From: a virus
Taxonomy: Duplodnaviria; Heunggongvirae; Uroviricota; Caudoviricetes
Virus record (IMG/VR): IMGVR_UViG_2913192161_000007
Location: 1-33,263 of that record
Strand: one strand, 5' to 3'
DNA: 33,263 nt
Shown here: positions 1-33,263 of the stretch, one piece after another
How positions within the stretch are numbered: the stretch's first letter is position 1
Layout: every line of letters begins with the position of its first letter
Program-made: the position numbers and the translations under genes
The notes under the pieces: model-generated
Database searches by the model: none
Told to the model about the DNA's origin: nothing
The model's input: the letters and a program-made list of their open reading frames with translations, nothing else

Positions 1-759
1 GTTTTTGTTGACCACTACAGTAATAGTAAGAAGTTGCCACATGAACAGGCAGCGTGTGGAAAGGCTAATGCTGGCTGTTCGCATTGTCTGCATCAGTTGA
101 GGTAGCTGATCCGGTCGAATGCTGGGCATGTTCTTTTTCTGAGGCTTCTCGAAGGCTTTACCGATATTAACGCTGGGAACAGCATCAATAAGCCCTGTGT
201 TTTGGGCGTAGATCATGACCTCATTAATGCGTTGGCACAGGCGACGAACGGTTTCCAGTGCTCCTCTGGCCTGAACTGGTTGGACGGCCTGAACCAGTGT
301 GTGAGCTTTAATATCTGTAACGCTAACGTCGCCAATTGCAGGGAAGACATCTCTTTCAAGAGAGCGCCAGATATCATCGGCATAGTCCTCTGTCACGCTG
401 GCTTTCTTCACATTCCACCATCGTTCAGCCACGAGCTGGAAAGTATTGGTTTTAGCTTCAAGCGAACTGCGAAGTTGTTCTTGCTGATGTTCCTGTGGAT
501 CGATTTGTTTCGCCAGGAGAGAGCGTGACTCTGCCCGATAGTTTCTGGCATCGGCAAGGGTAACTGACGGGTAGGGGCCTATGCTCTTCTTTGCTCGTTT
601 CTTGGTGACAGGACGAATGTAGCGAAACTGCCAGATTTTACTCCCGCTGGATTTGATGAGTAGCTCAAGGCCATCGCCATCATAGAGAGCGTAGTCCGCT
701 TCTTTGGGTTTAGCAGATTCGATTTCCTTAACGGAGAGAGGTTTGGTTTGTCTTGCCAT
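1..759 (-). CDS. P4/CP4-57-type tyrosine integrase, N-terminal part only (gene continues past window start)
   Basis: Minus-strand ATG at 757-759, open to position 1 in that frame (not in ORF track because it lacks a stop inside the window). Translation begins MARQTKPLSVKEIESAKPKEADYALYDGDGLELLIKSSGSKIWQFRY..., the arm-binding N-terminus typical of P4-family integrases found next to tRNA/tmRNA genes. Same orientation as ssrA and directly downstream of the displaced ssrA 3' copy. Confidence 0.75.
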   Translation of the reverse strand, partial: MARQTKPLSVKEIESAKPKEADYALYDGDGLELLIKSSGSKIWQFRYIRPVTKKRAKKSIGPYPSVTLADARNYRAESRSLLAKQIDPQEHQQEQLRSSLEAKTNTFQLVAERWWNVKKASVTEDYADDIWRSLERDVFPAIGDVSVTDIKAHTLVQAVQPVQARGALETVRRLCQRINEVMIYAQNTGLIDAVPSVNIGKAFEKPQKKNMPSIRPDQLPQLMQTMRTASISLSTRCLFMWQLLTITVVVNKN

Positions 760-916: not shown

Positions 917-963
917 TCTTAGGACTTCATCGGATGACTCTGGTAATCACCGATGGAGAATTT

Positions 964-1007
964 TGGTGAAGCTGGCGGGAGTTGAACCCGCGTCCGAAAT
1001 TCCTACA
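964..1007. repeat. attL core: 44-bp direct copy of the ssrA 3' end
   Basis: tggtgaagctggcgggagttgaacccgcgtccgaaattcctacat matches 32204..32247 at 43 of 44 positions (a at 969 versus g at 32209). Confidence 0.85.
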
Positions 1008-1093
1008 TACCATTTTTACTATAGCAAAAACAGTAGTTTGCATTTAAAAACAGTGCGTTATTGTTATGTAGTGTTTGTCCATTTTACTAATTT

Positions 1094-2164
1094 TTAATGC
1101 GCTGCCGCCAAAGTGCCGCCAACTTCGTTAGGAACTAGAGTTAGTGCTTCAGAAACGTAATCAGCCCATTCCTGCGAAGAAAATGCTTGTAAAGAATAGG
1201 CGTGTTTTCTGAATTTAAACCTCAACTTACCAACATATAAGTAATTATAAATGTTGTCGTAATGTGGTATATCTTCATTATATATCAAACGAATTAGTTT
1301 TCTTGATAGAAGATATGATATTTCTAAAATATCGGCGAATACTTGTTCTTCAAGTGTAAATGTTTTTAATTGATACCCATCATATTTTATCAAACAGTAT
1401 ACATGAGATATGGGGGATGTACATATCAGGTCTAATAACGAGGCTGTATTATATGACAAAGTGTTAAGTCGAATCATGTAACTTAATGGATTATATTCAT
1501 CTATAGAGTGTTGAACCGACAGAGTATTATTAATTGTGTTTAAGTACTCCTTTAATTGCACTAAAAAATCAGGGCTTGCGGTGAAGTTAGATGTGGTCTC
1601 TATAGTTGATTTGTTGTATATTTTTGTATATAAAAGATATGGGTTGGAAATTTTAATTTCATCTGCTGTAAACAAAGTGATATTTGGTTCGCCATTGAAT
1701 TTAATGAGGTTTCCATCTGAGCCTCTCGCGCTTTGAAGATTGTAGGCGAATATTTCCTTTGTTTTCTCAATAAAGTTTTTCTCATGTGCTAAATATCTAT
1801 CGACTGCATTTTTCGTTTCAGCGGTGTTGATCTGAGCTTCGGTTTGTATAGTGCGATGTATATTGTTGACGATCGAAGCCAAAGGAACTGCACTAGCTAG
1901 CAATAGTAGAGGGAATTTGCTTATTTCGTAAAATCTTGAATAGCCATGTGCGGAGAGTACTGGTTCTTTTCCCCACCATGTGAAAAAACCAAAATAGATA
2001 AAGGAAAATAAAGGTGTTAAAACTGAAATCCAAAATAATTTCTGACGAAATAAATTTCTTTTATCAAGCATGTACCATTTTTTTACTATTGTAATAAATA
2101 CTAATAAAACGATTGCTGCAATATAAATCACTGTATAACAAGTATCACTTAACATGATTTTCAC
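1094..2164 (-). CDS. Hypothetical polytopic membrane protein, AT-rich cargo gene (unknown function)
   Basis: 356-aa ORF. GTG at 2162-2164 overlaps the int stop codon (alternative ATG at 2153-2155). Three hydrophobic N-terminal segments (IYIAAIVLLVFITIV, ISVLTPLFSFIYFGFFTWW, FPLLLLASAVPLASIV) then an Asn/Tyr/Ile-rich soluble region. Base composition visibly far more AT-rich than flanking phage genes. Confidence 0.6.
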   Translation of the reverse strand: MKIMLSDTCYTVIYIAAIVLLVFITIVKKWYMLDKRNLFRQKLFWISVLTPLFSFIYFGFFTWWGKEPVLSAHGYSRFYEISKFPLLLLASAVPLASIVNNIHRTIQTEAQINTAETKNAVDRYLAHEKNFIEKTKEIFAYNLQSARGSDGNLIKFNGEPNITLFTADEIKISNPYLLYTKIYNKSTIETTSNFTASPDFLVQLKEYLNTINNTLSVQHSIDEYNPLSYMIRLNTLSYNTASLLDLICTSPISHVYCLIKYDGYQLKTFTLEEQVFADILEISYLLSRKLIRLIYNEDIPHYDNIYNYLYVGKLRFKFRKHAYSLQAFSSQEWADYVSEALTLVPNEVGGTLAAAH

Positions 2165-3177
2165 TCAATATAATTTAAAGGATTCTTAGTTACTGCATCT
2201 TCTAAGTGTTCTGGTGAAAAATGAGAATAGATCATCGTCATTTTTATATCGGCATGGCCCAGAATATCGCGCAGCACCAGTATGTTTCCGCCATTCATCA
2301 TAAAATGGCTGGCGAATGTATGACGTAGCACGTGAGTGCATTGGCCCTCTGGCAGCTCGATGCCAGCTCGCTTTACTGCTCGTTCAAAGGCTTTTCTGCA
2401 CGGGGTGAATAGCTTCCCTCTGTTCTTGGGGAGTTCGTCATACAGATCTTGAGATATCGGCACGGTGCGGTTTTTCTTACCCTTCGTCTTGGTATAAGTG
2501 ATGCGGTATTTAGATAACTGATGGCCCTGCAGGTTTTCGGCTTCACTCCAGCGTGCGCCGGTGGCCAGGCATATTTTTGCAATCAAAAGCAGACTGGGGT
2601 TTTGAGAATCAGCGCAGGCATCTAGCAGACGTTTAATTTCTTCCGAGGTCAGGAACGCCAGTTCCCCCTCAGCGATTTTAAATGTTGGCAGCCCGGCGAG
2701 AGGATTTGGTGCTGACCAGTGGCCTAGTTTTTTCAATGTGCCGAAAACCGATGATAGGTTACGTTGCTCAAGATTCACCGTGCGTGGTTTTACTGGCGAC
2801 ATTAGTGTGCCGTCTTCGTTACGAACGTCACCTTTTAACCGTGCTTCGCGGTATTTCGTAAAGTCACCGGCTGTCAGTTCTGAGGCGATGGGGTCGCCTA
2901 GACCATTACAGATAATTCTAAGTTTCGCCATGAGGCGCTTGGGGTCTGCGAGTGTCTGACCATACAGGGAATACCAAAGCTCAATTAATTCTGATAGGCG
3001 TCGCCGATCATCCTTTTCACCCAACCACGGTTTTTTATTCACTTCTTCCATTGTGAAGCTTTCAAAAGCAATGGCTTCGCCTTTCGTAGCAAATTGCTTA
3101 CGCACGCGCTTACCATTGCGTCCATTGGGATAGCACTCACACAACCATTTTCCGTTCGGCTGTTTTCTGATGGTCAT
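2161..3177 (-). CDS. int: Phage integrase, tyrosine recombinase (P2/186 Int family)
   Basis: 338 aa. Catalytic-type motifs ARWSE, HVLRHTF and MTMIYSHF near the C-terminus. Adjacent to attL, downstream of cI on the same strand. Confidence 0.9.
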   Translation of the reverse strand: MTIRKQPNGKWLCECYPNGRNGKRVRKQFATKGEAIAFESFTMEEVNKKPWLGEKDDRRRLSELIELWYSLYGQTLADPKRLMAKLRIICNGLGDPIASELTAGDFTKYREARLKGDVRNEDGTLMSPVKPRTVNLEQRNLSSVFGTLKKLGHWSAPNPLAGLPTFKIAEGELAFLTSEEIKRLLDACADSQNPSLLLIAKICLATGARWSEAENLQGHQLSKYRITYTKTKGKKNRTVPISQDLYDELPKNRGKLFTPCRKAFERAVKRAGIELPEGQCTHVLRHTFASHFMMNGGNILVLRDILGHADIKMTMIYSHFSPEHLEDAVTKNPLNYIE

Positions 3178-3178
3178 A

Positions 3179-3811
3179 TCAAAGGCTCTTAATGATTTTC
3201 AGTGCGCGGCCTACTACCTCAATGTCATCTAGGCCACACTCAAACGATGAATCATCCTGATGTACTACTAATTTGTTTCCCGGGAGTCGAGTCAATTTAA
3301 CAATGCTTTTTATCCCGTCGATATCGACTAACCACATACCATTTACTGGTGGTGTTTGGTTGCGATCTATTAAATAAGAATCACCAGAAGTAGTCACCAG
3401 CAGTAGGTTGCTTGAGTCTGAGGGGAGTATGCTGCTATCAATGATTGCTTTTCCAGCATCGATCAATAAACCACCGTTGAGAGTCGCCTTGTCAATTTCA
3501 GGAGATACTAGTTCAGAAAGAGGTATAACCTTGCTGGAGTTCACGGAATTGATATTTTTTTGGGGTTCAATGTTTGAACCTGGCTCCCCCTGTCCGGTGG
3601 TTAGCCACAGTAAAGAAACTCCTGTTTCCAAGGCGCACTGAATCACCCACTCTGCAGGAAAACTATCTCTTAAGTATCTGTTTGCCATGGTGCTTTTTGA
3701 TGCGCCTAAGTGATCGCAAAGTTGCTGTCTGGACTTGAAATCATAGGCTGCCATTAGTCTATGGATAGCCTCTCTTCCCCCTGTATTCTCTCCAACCTTT
3801 ACATGTATCAT
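3179..3811 (-). CDS. cI: CI-type immunity repressor (N-terminal HTH, C-terminal domain with S24-peptidase-like motifs)
   Basis: 210 aa. HTH-like SRQQLCDHLGASKSTMANRY. C-terminal SGDSY followed by IKSIVKLTRLPGNKLVV resembles the Ser/Lys region of LexA-type folds. Divergent from apl/cII and tightly coupled to int. Confidence 0.75.
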   Translation of the reverse strand: MIHVKVGENTGGREAIHRLMAAYDFKSRQQLCDHLGASKSTMANRYLRDSFPAEWVIQCALETGVSLLWLTTGQGEPGSNIEPQKNINSVNSSKVIPLSELVSPEIDKATLNGGLLIDAGKAIIDSSILPSDSSNLLLVTTSGDSYLIDRNQTPPVNGMWLVDIDGIKSIVKLTRLPGNKLVVHQDDSSFECGLDDIEVVGRALKIIKSL

Positions 3812-31352: not shown

Positions 31353-31571
31353 ATGATGAATTGTCCAAAGTGTGGTCATGCGGCGCACACAAGGAGCAGT
31401 TTTCAAGTAACAGAAAGCACCAAAGAGCGTTACTGCCAGTGCCAAAATATTAACTGCGGGAGCACTTTTGTTACCCATGAAACAGTGGTCCGGTTTATTG
31501 TGACACCTGCAGTGATTGCCACAGCCCCTCCACATCCATTGCCAGGTGGTCAGGGCCATATGAATTTTTAA
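31353..31571 (+). CDS. ogr: Late transcription activator, Ogr/Delta zinc-finger family
   Basis: 72 aa from ATG 31353. MMNCPKCGHAAHTRSS...KERYCQCQNINCGSTF...PHPLPGGQ matches the P2 Ogr C-x2-C...C-x4-C pattern and length. Confidence 0.85.
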   Translation: MMNCPKCGHAAHTRSSFQVTESTKERYCQCQNINCGSTFVTHETVVRFIVTPAVIATAPPHPLPGGQGHMNF

Positions 31572-31579
31572 GAAAGAGA

Positions 31580-31602
31580 ACCTGCTACGGCAGGTTTTTA
31601 TT
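31580..31602. terminator. Hairpin terminator between convergent ogr and the WYL/BRCT gene (possibly bidirectional)
   Basis: Stem ACCTGC / GCAGGT with loop TACG, followed by TTTTTATT on the plus strand; a weaker T-rich tract follows on the minus strand. Overlaps the stop codon of the minus-strand gene. Confidence 0.55.
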
Positions 31603-32080
31603 CATCTGGGATCTCACCTGTTTCAAGAAAATGTATAAAGCCAGGCTCATCTATGATGATAGTGCCTTTCATCCTTGCTGCCGATACTTTTGATGGGCCT
31701 GCATTGTAACCGCAGCAGAGCATCTGAAGGTTTTGGGTTACAGAGGTTCTTACCGTTAATCCTTGTTCATTCGCCTTATCAACCAACCTTTCTTTATCTG
31801 CTTTCTTAAATCCGGTGAAACATACATCGAATGTATTTTTTTTCGGGCCAGACGGCTTAGTGAGATGTGAGTAGTTTTCGGGGAGGAATGTCTCGCATTC
31901 CTGAATGGCTTGTTCTTGTGAATCGTATTGTTTAAGAATGCGGTCTTTTCGGAAGGTTTTTATTCGGTCGGTGTTCTTACAAATGCCCTGTATATGATTT
32001 TCGCTATAACTGATGCTCTGTATTGAGTGAACACCGATACGACCATTTGCATTGATGTAAACAAAGTGAAGTTCTTCCAT
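31598..32080 (-). CDS. Hypothetical protein with WYL-like N-terminal motif and BRCT-like C-terminal domain (cargo gene next to attR)
   Basis: 160 aa, RBS aagagg 6 nt upstream of ATG. N-terminal TDRIKTFRKDRIL resembles the R-x-F-R-x-D-R-I core of WYL domains. C-terminal VCFTGFKK...GLTVRTSVTQNLQMLCCGYNAGPSKVSAARMKGTIIIDEPGFIHFL lines up with the LigA-type BRCT pattern (V-x-TG ... SVSKKT ... AG-SK ... A ... G ... IDE ... F). Moderately AT-rich. Confidence 0.65.
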   Translation of the reverse strand: MEELHFVYINANGRIGVHSIQSISYSENHIQGICKNTDRIKTFRKDRILKQYDSQEQAIQECETFLPENYSHLTKPSGPKKNTFDVCFTGFKKADKERLVDKANEQGLTVRTSVTQNLQMLCCGYNAGPSKVSAARMKGTIIIDEPGFIHFLETGEIPDE

Positions 32081-32106
32081 GTGAAACCTCTTGGCTTGAT
32101 TTCAAG

Positions 32107-32145
32107 ATGGCGACAGGCAAGACGGACGCAAAACTCTGTCGCCAT
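32107..32145. promoter_or_regulatory. Perfect 10-bp inverted repeat (ATGGCGACAG ... CTGTCGCCAT) upstream of the WYL/BRCT gene; candidate operator
   Basis: Arms at 32107-32116 and 32136-32145 separated by 19 bp, with an extra direct copy of TGTCGCC at 32148-32154. Lies between the gene start (32080) and the ssrA 3' end. Confidence 0.5.
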
Positions 32146-32164
32146 TTTGTCGCCACTACCAAAG

Positions 32165-32199
32165 AAAAAGGGGCTACGCCTTCACGTAACCCCTTGATT
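32165..32199 (-). terminator. Possible phage-supplied terminator just downstream of the ssrA 3' end
   Basis: Minus strand: AAGGGG - 16-nt loop - CCCCTT followed by TTTTT. Short stem and large loop, so weak. Confidence 0.35.
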
Positions 32200-32203
32200 T
32201 ATT

Positions 32204-32247
32204 TGGTGGAGCTGGCGGGAGTTGAACCCGCGTCCGAAATTCCTACA
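32204..32247. repeat. attR core (3'-terminal 44 nt of ssrA)
   Basis: Direct repeat of 964..1007 (43/44 identical); here it is the functional 3' end of tmRNA ending ...GCTCCACCA. Confidence 0.85.
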
Positions 32248-32566
32248 TCCTCGGTACTACATGCTTAGTCAGTCTTTACATTCGCTTGCCAGCTGCGGAC
32301 AGACACGCCACTAACAAACTAGCCTGATTAAGTTTTAACGCTTCAACCCCAGGCAGGGCTTCCACGCGATCTCTTTTGGGTTTGACCTCTCTTGATCCCC
32401 GTCCTAAGAGCGGAGGCTAGGGAGAGAGGGCTCTAAGCAGGTTATTAAGCTGCTAAAGCGTAGTTTTCGTCGTTTGCGACTATTTTTTGCGGCTTTTTAC
32501 GAGGCCAACCGCCCCTCGGCATGCACCTTGGGTTTCGCAAATCCCGTCGAATCCAGAATCAGCCCC
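32204..32566 (-). ncRNA. ssrA: tmRNA (SsrA), complete
   Basis: 363 nt on the minus strand, GGGGCTGATTCTGGATTCGACGGG ... tRNA-like 3' end ...GGTTCAACTCCCGCCAGCTCCACCA. Internal tag-coding region present. Downstream of smpB on the same strand. Confidence 0.95.
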
Positions 32567-32780: not shown

Positions 32781-33263
32781 TTAACGGTGCGCATTTTTCA
32801 TGATACGTGCTTTATCAACCTGCCATTCACGTTCTTTGATATCAGAACGTTTATCGTGTTGTTTCTTACCTTTCGCGACGCCGATTTTTACTTTGCACCA
32901 GGCATTTTTCCAGTACAGGGAGAGCGCTACTACGGTATAACCTTCACGGTTCACTCGGCCATAGAGAGAGTCAAGTTCGCGCTGGTTGAGAAGCAGTTTG
33001 CGGGTGCGAGTAGGGTCGCACACCACGTGCGTGGAAGCCACTGCCATCGGCGTGATGTTTGCTCCAAACAGGAACGCTTCTCCGTCGCGCAGAAGGACAT
33101 AGCTGTCGCTAATATTGGCTTTTCCTGCGCGCAGGGATTTAACTTCCCAGCCTTGCAGGGCAAGTCCCGCTTCGAACTCTTCTTCAATAAAGTATTCGTG
33201 ACGGGCGCGCTTGTTAAGCGCGATGGTCGCTGAACCAGGTTTATGTGCTTTTTTCTTCGTCAT
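32781..33263 (-). CDS. smpB: SsrA-binding protein SmpB
   Basis: 160 aa, [70 protein letters not shown]... matches enterobacterial SmpB. Start codon at the last three bases of the window. Confidence 0.95.

What the first reader, a model, noticed from the sequence alone, without database searches (positions are those of the whole stretch)
31572..32203. Small WYL-like / BRCT-like protein with a perfect inverted-repeat operator between ogr and attR
The 160-aa minus-strand ORF next to the right attachment site combines an N-terminal segment carrying the WYL-type core (TDRIKTFRKDRIL) with a C-terminal region matching the LigA-type BRCT pattern. WYL domains are ligand-sensing modules found in regulators of defence islands and DNA-damage responses; BRCT domains bind DNA ends, nicks or phosphorylated partners. 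A short WYL-BRCT fusion is not something I can assign to a characterised phage function. A perfect 10-bp inverted repeat with an extra half-site lies directly upstream, suggesting autoregulation. The gene is convergent with ogr, shares a hairpin terminator with it, and is moderately AT-rich, so it looks like a moron inserted at the att-proximal variable end.
Basis: partly seen in the sequence, partly recalled or inferred. Interest (0 to 1): 0.72.

Follow-up and report, generated by a model that had tools for sequence, protein, structure and literature searches.

The report
Prophage WYL-BRCT protein beside integrase sites
A P2-like prophage inserted in the E. coli tmRNA gene carries a real, conserved small gene whose protein joins a WYL-like sensor barrel to a BRCT phosphate-binding domain; its function is untested, and the "operator" repeat upstream is the integrase's arm-binding site of the phage attachment site.

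Summary

The inverted repeat is real, but the operator reading fails. The two direct TGTCGCCA copies match the published 186-type integrase arm-site consensus. They recur as a pair with the same 11-bp spacing on the other att arm (1103-1121). They are conserved in Fels-2, SopEPhi and E. coli S1 prophages that lack the ORF. The inverted third copy is absent upstream of orthologues in Klebsiella, Yersinia phage MLG42 and Pantoea.

In six other genera the gene sits directly downstream of the CI repressor, so it is lysogeny-operon cargo.

My best inference, unproven, is a lysogen-expressed, non-enzymatic binder of ssDNA/5'-phosphate DNA junctions that acts in superinfection exclusion or DNA-damage sensing. 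It is an uncharacterised variant of known domain kinds and is of moderate interest.

The parts
31598..32080 (-). Gene for the 160-aa WYL-like/BRCT protein. The stop codon abuts the ogr terminator.
   Evidence: The ORF is listed. There are 122 homologues. dN/dS against phage Cartapus is 0.08. Against the Klebsiella, Yersinia and Pantoea orthologues pS is 0.82-0.89 and pN is 0.18-0.25. PHROG 2561 matches at 1e-76.
31919..32080 (-). N-terminal WYL-like Sm/SH3 barrel (aa 1-54), followed by two short helices (aa 55-73) and a linker
31619..31831 (-). C-terminal BRCT domain (aa 84-154) of the RFC1/LigA type, with invariant T89, G90 and K131
32087..32092 (-). Shine-Dalgarno AAGAGG, 6 nt before the ATG
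   Evidence: Read directly from the sequence.
31579..31596 (.). Hairpin between the convergent ogr and the WYL-BRCT gene, a likely bidirectional terminator
   Evidence: The terminator scan finds 7 pairs on the minus strand. The plus-strand hairpin is followed by TTTTTATT.
32137..32155 (+). Two direct 186-type Int arm-type sites of the ogr-side arm of attP: TGTCGCCA ttt TGTCGCCA, 11 bp start to start
   Evidence: Family D6. The sites are conserved in phages that lack the ORF. The consensus tgccGCCActt is from PMC3448106.
32108..32115 (-). Third copy of the octamer, in inverted orientation. It forms the 10-bp perfect inverted repeat and is specific to the window/Cartapus lineage.
   Evidence: It is present in Cartapus. 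It is absent from Klebsiella, Yersinia MLG42 and Pantoea. Fels-2 and E. coli S1 carry a third copy in direct orientation instead.
1103..1121 (+). Matching pair of Int arm-type sites on the int-side arm: TGCCGCCA aag TGCCGCCA, same 11-bp spacing and orientation, about 95 bp from the core
   Evidence: The equivalent pair occurs in Cartapus attP and Yersinia MLG42.
32168..32195 (-). Phage-supplied terminator hairpin directly after the tmRNA 3' end, between ssrA and the WYL-BRCT gene on the same strand
   Evidence: The scan finds 12 pairs followed by TTTCTTT. The hairpin is conserved in all ssrA-integrating relatives.
32202..32248 (.). attR core, overlapping the 3' end of ssrA
   Evidence: It matches 962-1008 at 46 of 47 positions, read. 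The tmRNA call is.
962..1008 (.). attL core copy
   Evidence: compared.
31356..31571 (+). ogr late-gene activator, convergent neighbour
   Evidence: Pfam Ogr_Delta 8.7e-21.
2161..3811 (-). 186-type integrase (2161-3177) and CI repressor (3179-3811). In the circular phage this lysogeny operon reads through attP towards the WYL-BRCT gene.
   Evidence: Pfam Int_N and Phage_integrase, Phage_CI_repr and Phage_CI_C.

Best explanation
SHOWN. The locus is a cargo gene (moron) at the ogr-att end of a 186/Fels-2-type P2-like prophage integrated in ssrA. It encodes a two-domain, non-enzymatic protein. The N-terminal domain is a WYL-like Sm barrel, a fold that binds ssDNA in CapW, DriD and PafBC. A flexible linker joins it to an RFC1/LigA-class BRCT with an intact T-G...K phosphate pocket. 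The gene is under purifying selection. In most other lineages it lies immediately downstream of the immunity repressor in the lysogeny operon. The upstream repeats are the integrase arm-type sites of attP, not an operator. INFERRED. The protein is made in the lysogen. In this phage, transcription would have to come through or around the ssrA terminator, or from an unrecognised weak promoter. The protein acts by occupancy on DNA structures that combine single-stranded DNA with a 5'-phosphorylated duplex end or nick. Such structures include gaps, resected ends and annealed or free cohesive ends. The most likely biological role is the one usual for cI-operon cargo: interference with the DNA of superinfecting phages (exclusion or defence). 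Sensing of damaged DNA is the nearest alternative. The confidence given applies to the inferred mechanism and role. The shown parts (domain architecture, arm-site identity, cargo status) I hold at about 0.9.
For: Domains. The WYL fold binds ssDNA in its closest structural matches (9c5g and 7tzv; PMC11662680; abstracts). RFC1 BRCT binds the 5'-recessed duplex (PMC9293004), and the family's best PDB profile hits are RFC1 and LigA BRCTs. Selection. Lysogeny-operon position, with CI followed by the gene at gaps of 3-34 nt: Yersinia ruckeri, Xenorhabdus, Pectobacterium, Sodalis, Mannheimia PHL101 and Vibrio PV94. In Serratia the order is repressor, one gene, this gene, int. In Cartapus cI, int, cargo, attP and the gene all lie on one strand. 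There is no conserved partner gene across these contexts. Moron status: low GC (66), and absence from Fels-2, SopEPhi and the E. coli S1 prophage at the same att site. The full locus is present in 171 of 5426 complete E. coli genomes. Some relatives are membrane-anchored (P0152 and P0209), which fits action on incoming DNA. The interval between integrase and primase, which holds the cI-downstream slot, and the int-att slot are described P2 defence hotspots (PMC13586616). Arm sites.
Against: No binding, expression or phenotype data exist. The window protein itself does not reach Pfam's thresholds for either domain. The W-Y-L triad is H-I-Q here, and the two arginines that flank it and contact ssDNA in CapW are missing, so the ligand could be something other than ssDNA. 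BRCT pockets also bind phosphopeptides and ADP-ribose. No known defence family matches beyond the BRCT domain. The P2 hotspot survey I read lists no ogr-att hotspot and never mentions WYL or BRCT. No promoter was detected, and a strong terminator lies upstream. A protein without an effector domain is an unusual defence factor.
Confidence: 0.4

Rival explanations
1. DNA-damage or infection sensor that feeds into the lysis-lysogeny switch. The WYL-BRCT protein would detect ssDNA or broken DNA and modulate CI, Tum, Int/excision or the host SOS response, for example by competing with RecFOR at 5' gap junctions. This would tune prophage induction.
For: The characterised WYL proteins nearest in fold (DriD, PafBC, CapW) are ssDNA-triggered damage sensors. 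The gene lies tightly next to 186-type cI in six genera. RFC1-type BRCT recognises the 5' junction of gaps.
Against: The gene also occurs with unrelated repressors, namely HTH_3 in Serratia and XRE in Burkholderia. In E. coli, Klebsiella, Yersinia MLG42 and Pantoea it lies far from cI. It is dispensable in close relatives with the same CI and Int type. It has no output domain.
Confidence: 0.2
2. One reading: an autoregulated regulator that binds the 32103-32155 inverted repeat as its own operator.
For: The inverted repeat is real and statistically unusual, and it lies between the ssrA terminator and the RBS. WYL domains are common in transcription factors.
Against: The protein has no HTH or other sequence-specific DNA-binding domain. 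The direct copies are 186-type Int arm sites. They are present without the gene and are duplicated on the other arm. The inverted copy is missing upstream of orthologues. No promoter overlaps the repeat.
Confidence: 0.04
3. Ligase or clamp-loader BRCT mimic that serves the phage's own DNA metabolism or counter-defence. It would bind nicks or cos ends to protect or channel phage DNA, or sequester a phosphorylated or nucleotide ligand as a sponge for immune signals.
For: The closest sequence relatives of the C-terminal domain are LigA BRCTs. Phages encode split ligases with a BRCT-bearing B subunit (9hu3; Eps7). The phosphate pocket is invariant. WYL domains were originally predicted to bind nucleotides.
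Against: The gene is placed in the lysogeny operon rather than among early lytic genes. No ligase catalytic subunit is encoded nearby. P2-like phages without the gene are viable.
Confidence: 0.12
4. The inverted third octamer, together with the pair, is a regulatory Int-binding array. It would let integrase, not the WYL-BRCT protein, gate read-through into the gene or shape the intasome. The gene's expression would then depend on Int occupancy or on ssrA read-through. This concerns how the gene is expressed and is compatible with any of the functional models above.
For: Fels-2 and E. coli S1 also have a third octamer at a similar place, but in direct orientation. The RNA of this leader is predicted to fold so that the U-tract after the ssrA terminator pairs with the Shine-Dalgarno sequence (z = -4.3).
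Against: This is purely a sequence inference. The z-score is dominated by the terminator hairpin. Orthologous loci lack the third copy.
Confidence: 0.15

Closest known systems
WYL-domain ssDNA sensors (CapW, BrxR, DriD, PafBC; Pfam PF13280)
   Same: They share the five-stranded Sm-like barrel and are the best structural matches. The C-terminal T-F-R-x-D-R-I motif is conserved, and the family is likewise found on mobile elements.
   Different: This protein has no wHTH and no WCX dimerisation domain. The W-Y-L triad is replaced by H/Y-I/L-Q, and the flanking ssDNA-contacting arginines of CapW are absent. The query itself is below Pfam's threshold. The output is a BRCT domain, not a transcription factor.
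BRCT domains of NAD-dependent DNA ligase LigA and of RFC1 (p140)
   Same: They share the fold and are the best sequence-profile matches. The T-G and K phosphate-pocket residues are invariant. RFC1 BRCT binds 5'-recessed duplex ends.
   Different: This BRCT stands with only a WYL barrel, and there is no adenylation, OB, HhH or AAA+ module. The matches to TIGR00575 (19.7 bits against a cut-off of 444) and to the DEDDh exonuclease model cover only the BRCT. The protein is therefore neither a ligase nor an exonuclease, despite public annotations.
Arm-type integrase binding sites of phage 186-type attP (Nilsson et al. 2011, PMC3448106)
   Same: The octamer TG(T/C)CGCCA fits the consensus tgccGCCActt. 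At least two direct repeats flank the core on each side. The integrase is of the 186 type (Int_N) and targets a tRNA-like gene.
   Different: The window/Cartapus lineage has an additional inverted copy 21 bp from the pair, which creates a perfect 10-bp palindrome. Binding by Int was not tested.
Lysogeny-operon cargo such as lambda rexAB, and the P2 hotspot cargo genes
   Same: These are accessory genes expressed from the prophage and placed next to the repressor, integrase or att. They are variably present among close relatives and AT-rich (the lambda example is from my own knowledge).
   Different: No exclusion phenotype is known for this family. It matches no PADLOC system beyond a shared BRCT with the candidate PDC-S48.

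Membership tests
WYL domain (PF13280) | Five-stranded Sm/SH3-like beta-barrel | tested here: met
WYL domain (PF13280) | Score above Pfam's gathering threshold | tested here: inconclusive
   The window protein has no Pfam WYL hit at E<=10, and PADLOC WYL gives E 0.023. Among family members, 4 of 36 match, best E 1.5e-5. Relatives P0152, P0182, P0239 and P0215 score 22.8-28.6 bits against a gathering score of 21.8.
WYL domain (PF13280) | Eponymous W-Y-L strand and the basic residues that contact ssDNA in CapW (S144, R164, R168, R184) | tested here: not met
   The family has H/Y-I/L-Q in place of W-Y-L and no flanking arginines. Only the arginine of T-F-R-K-D-R-I is conserved (alignment; CapW residues).
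BRCT domain (PF00533) | BRCT alpha/beta fold | tested here: met
BRCT domain (PF00533) | Score above Pfam's gathering threshold | tested here: inconclusive
   The query scores 19.9 bits against 21.3, E 8.5e-4. Of 36 members, 28 match. The profile against the PDB finds RFC1 at 1.9e-5.
BRCT domain (PF00533) | Phosphate-binding pocket: S/T-G after strand 1 and K at the start of helix 2 | tested here: met
   T89, G90 and K131 are invariant across 36 sequences. K131 aligns with the K of human RFC1 G-Q-S-K.
NAD-dependent DNA ligase (public annotation, PHROG 2561) | Adenylation (nucleotidyltransferase) and OB domains | tested here: not met
   Only positions 550-650 of 652 in TIGR00575 are matched, at 19.7 bits against a cut-off of 444. 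The protein is 160 aa.
DEDDh exonuclease (public annotation in phage Cartapus) | DEDDh exonuclease domain | tested here: not met
   The NF004719 match covers only profile positions 231-307 of 331, at 25.7 bits against a cut-off of 389.
186-type Int arm-type sites of attP | [quoted passage not shown] | tested here: met
   The sites are 32137-32144 and 32148-32155 on one side and 1103-1110 and 1114-1121 on the other, each pair 11 bp apart.
186-type Int arm-type sites of attP | Conservation with the att/int type, independent of neighbouring cargo | tested here: met
   The sites are present in Fels-2, SopEPhi, a Klebsiella phage and E. coli S1, which lack the ORF. A variant pair, TGGCAGCA, occurs at a tRNA att site in Pantoea.
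186-type Int arm-type sites of attP | Binding by the N-terminal domain of Int | not testable with these tools
   This needs a footprint or EMSA.
Autoregulatory operator of the ORF | The repeat co-varies with the gene, overlaps its promoter, and the protein has a sequence-specific DNA-binding domain | tested here: not met
   Searches show no inverted copy in orthologous loci. One search finds no promoter. Searches find no HTH.
Known anti-phage defence systems (PADLOC) | Full-length match to a system protein | tested here: not met
   Only the BRCT part of the candidate PDC-S48 matches (profile positions 336-406 of 411, E 2.2e-7).

The most novel reading that the evidence does not exclude
The WYL-BRCT module is a stand-alone sensor for ssDNA/5'-phosphate junctions and forms a new, non-enzymatic, single-protein prophage function. 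Either it is an exclusion factor that caps the ends or gaps of incoming phage DNA, or it is a trans-acting damage sensor coupled to the 186-type lysogeny switch. In this lineage its expression would be rewired by integration, which places the gene behind the highly transcribed ssrA gene.
Probability: 0.25. Interest if true: 0.7.

Novelty: new variant of a known kind. Interest (0 to 1): 0.45.

Why it matters
All characterised WYL proteins couple ligand sensing to a helix-turn-helix, helicase or nuclease output. A widespread WYL+BRCT module with no output domain, riding in the repressor operon of P2-like prophages, has no assigned function. The profile search found 204 clusters (at 50% identity) with E below 1e-30. 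If the protein binds DNA ends or gaps, it could reveal a simple occupancy-based way for prophages to exclude rivals or to read DNA damage. The analysis also corrects two recurrent misannotations ("DNA ligase" and "exonuclease"). It further shows that a conspicuous palindrome next to att is integrase arm-site architecture, which is a useful caution when reading operators near attachment sites.

Tried and rejected
1. Operator or autoregulation: rejected, for the reasons given above.
2. Ligase or exonuclease identity: rejected, because only the BRCT domain matches.
3. Membership of the PADLOC candidate PDC-S48: rejected, because only the BRCT domain matches, even for 400-aa relatives.
4. A functional pair with the gene on the other side of attP (1094-2164): rejected. 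Cartapus carries an unrelated gene in that slot, and Yersinia MLG42 carries none.
5. A search for an informative fused effector domain in longer relatives gave nothing. Twenty proteins were scanned against Pfam, ten against PADLOC and three against PDB sequences, and the extensions had no matches.
6. Literature searches for WYL+BRCT in phages, BRCT in anti-phage or P2-like defence, and PDC-S48 found only the 2014 domain-architecture listing.
7. The sigma-70 promoter scan found nothing on the gene's strand between the ssrA terminator and the RBS. By eye, only poor hexamers are present there.
8. The BFVD fold search returned ligase BRCTs, small "putative DNA ligase" proteins and stand-alone phage WYL proteins, none of them characterised.

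Full report
SETTING. The window is a P2-like prophage of the 186/Fels-2 type (Peduoviridae; the closest isolate is Escherichia phage Cartapus, Elveevirus, 98% identical over this locus). It is integrated into the 3' end of ssrA. ARAGORN finds the tmRNA at 32204-32566 on the minus strand, and smpB follows at 32781-33263. The 47-nt att core at 32202-32248 recurs at 962-1008 with one mismatch. At the left end, reading towards attL, lie CI (3179-3811), a 186-type integrase (2161-3177) and an AT-rich cargo ORF (1094-2164). At the right end lie gpD, ogr (31356-31571) and the ORF in question.

OBSERVATION. The 160-aa ORF (31598-32080, minus strand) has a good Shine-Dalgarno sequence (AAGAGG, 6 nt before the ATG) and an N-terminus conserved in homologues. 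It converges on ogr. An 18-nt hairpin (31579-31596) sits between the two stop codons, followed by a T-run on the ogr strand and a weaker one on the other strand. The ORF has 41% GC against 52% for the prophage. The inverted repeat is present as described: arms 32103-32116 and 32136-32149 with a perfect 10-bp core, and a third octamer at 32148-32155. The octamer TGTCGCCA occurs 7 times in the window against 1.4 expected.

THE GENE IS REAL. There are 122 homologues at E<=1e-3, most of about 160 aa. An exhaustive profile search finds 2777 cluster representatives at E<=1e-3 and 204 at E<=1e-30. Of the best 150, 85 are 200 aa or shorter. Against Cartapus dN/dS is 0.08. Against the Klebsiella, Yersinia-phage and Pantoea orthologues, synonymous sites are saturated (pS 0.82-0.89) while pN is 0.18-0.25.

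DOMAINS.
- The full-length AF2 model is confident (pLDDT 90.8). Its pTM is only 0.50, as expected for two domains on a flexible linker whose pLDDT is about 66 at residues 71-80.
- T89, G90 and K131 are invariant. K131 aligns with the K of human RFC1 G-Q-S-K. By established knowledge of BRCT domains, these positions form the phosphate pocket. RFC1's BRCT contributes to binding a 5'-recessed duplex end, and the isolated domain binds 5'-P recessed DNA tightly (PMC9293004).
- The window protein is not detected by Pfam's WYL model, and PADLOC WYL gives E 0.023. Four of 36 family members are detected, and four longer relatives exceed the gathering score.
- The T-F-R-K-D-R-I motif is conserved. The W-Y-L triad is H-I-Q, and the arginines that flank it and touch ssDNA in CapW are absent. 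"WYL-like" is therefore the right description, and the ligand is not certain.
- A WYL+BRCT fusion was listed among WYL architectures in 2014 (PMC4012209). I found no functional study.
- The public names "DNA ligase" (PHROG 2561; phages 500465-1 and PHL101) and "putative exonuclease" (Cartapus) rest on the BRCT alone.

THE REPEAT IS THE INTEGRASE'S, NOT THE GENE'S.
- The segment from about 32133 to the att core is conserved in the ssrA-integrating phages Fels-2 and SopEPhi, in Klebsiella phages and in an E. coli S1 prophage. Fels-2, SopEPhi and the S1 prophage go straight from ogr to att without this ORF. The Klebsiella phage carries a different small ORF there.
- All of them keep TGTCGCCA-ttt-TG(T/C)CGCCA.
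- A second pair with the same 11-bp spacing and orientation lies on the other arm, at 1103-1121, about 95 bp from the core. The same pair occurs in the contiguous attP of Cartapus and of Yersinia phage MLG42.
- Nilsson et al. [quoted passage not shown] The window's integrase is of that type.
- A Pantoea prophage that carries the gene next to a tRNA att site has TGGCAGCA-aaa-TGGCAGCA instead, so the pair tracks the att/int module.
- The inverted third copy, which creates the palindrome, is found only in the window/Cartapus lineage. The Klebsiella, Yersinia and Pantoea loci lack it. Fels-2 and E. coli S1 have a third copy in direct orientation.
- The protein has no sequence-specific DNA-binding domain, and no sigma-70-like promoter was found there on its strand.
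- The operator hypothesis is therefore not supported. The third copy is best read as an extra arm-type site, and its significance is unknown.

CONTEXT ELSEWHERE.
- In Yersinia ruckeri, Xenorhabdus, Pectobacterium and Sodalis, and in Mannheimia phage PHL101 and Vibrio phage PV94, the gene starts 3-34 nt after the stop of the immunity repressor on the same strand, usually followed by int.
- In Serratia it follows an HTH_3 repressor and one other gene, and it precedes int.
- In Burkholderia phages it follows an XRE regulator and a hypothetical gene.
- In the E. coli, Klebsiella, Yersinia MLG42 and Pantoea lineages it lies across attP from int, next to ogr.
- In the circular phage, cI, int, cargo, attP and this gene all point the same way. 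After integration the gene lies directly downstream of ssrA and of the phage-supplied ssrA terminator (32168-32195).
- No partner gene is conserved across these contexts.
- A Pseudothioglobus homologue sits in an integrase-bearing island next to Mrr and methylase genes.
- A recent survey of thousands of P2-like prophages lists secondary defence hotspots between int and att and between int and the primase. The second interval contains the cI-downstream slot. The survey does not mention this family (PMC13586616).

MECHANISM.
- Shown: a conserved, selected, non-enzymatic WYL-like+BRCT protein that is lysogeny-operon or att-proximal cargo.
- Inferred: the protein is present in lysogens. It recognises DNA that combines a single-stranded stretch (WYL) with a phosphorylated duplex end or nick (BRCT). 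It acts by occupancy.
- I rank superinfection exclusion or defence first, because that is what cI-operon cargo usually does and because some relatives are membrane-anchored. I rank damage sensing linked to the lysogeny switch second. I rank a role in the phage's own DNA transactions or in counter-defence third. None of these was tested.
- Expression in this phage is an open point. Reading from ssrA towards the start codon, the gene is preceded by a strong terminator and then the Int sites. The predicted leader RNA pairs the post-terminator U-tract with the Shine-Dalgarno sequence, which may or may not be meaningful.

VERDICT. The operator and autoregulation interpretation is wrong. The family is an uncharacterised variant built from known domains. 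It is widespread and consistently tied to prophage lysogeny modules. It is worth a bench test but is not a categorically new kind of element.

Noticed in passing
window 1094-2164 (-): A very AT-rich (33% GC) 356-aa ORF lies between int and attL. It has no significant Pfam or PADLOC match. Phage Cartapus carries an unrelated 401-aa gene, annotated RES, in the same int-att slot, so this is a cargo-swapping hotspot. It matches the minor int-att defence hotspot reported for P2-like phages.
   Followed up: partly
window 1103-1121: The int-side pair of integrase arm-type sites lies inside the 3' coding end of the 1094-2164 ORF (stop at 1094-1096). The cargo gene therefore overlaps functional attP sequence.
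   Followed up: no
window 1-759 (-) and 962-1008: The N-terminal 253 aa of a second tyrosine integrase (Arm-DNA-bind_3 + Phage_int_M) lies immediately outside attL. This suggests a tandem array of two integrative elements at ssrA. The displaced att copy differs at one base (A969 against G32209), inside the CCA-end region of tmRNA.
   Followed up: partly
window 32075-32204 (-): The predicted RNA structure (-47.7 kcal/mol, z = -4.3) has three parts: the ssrA terminator hairpin, a hairpin formed by the inverted repeat, and pairing of the U-tract after the terminator with the gene's Shine-Dalgarno sequence. The last could mask translation on read-through transcripts.
   Followed up: no
L001/L009 (Fels-2, E. 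coli S1) compared with window 32103-32155: ORF-less relatives have three direct octamers. The window/Cartapus lineage has two direct copies plus one inverted. The orientation of the third arm-type site flipped where the cargo gene joins the att arm.
   Followed up: partly
relatives P0152, P0209, P0182: Some relatives carry N-terminal transmembrane segments and a second WYL barrel, or a second BRCT plus a C-terminal domain of about 160 aa with no database match. The WYL-BRCT module is therefore reused in larger, unannotated architectures.
   Followed up: partly
L019 4843-6345 (Pantoea sp. At-9b prophage): In Pantoea, a YcaO-domain gene and a 68-aa ORF lie between this gene and ogr. They may be a RiPP-like cargo in the same att-proximal slot.
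   Followed up: no
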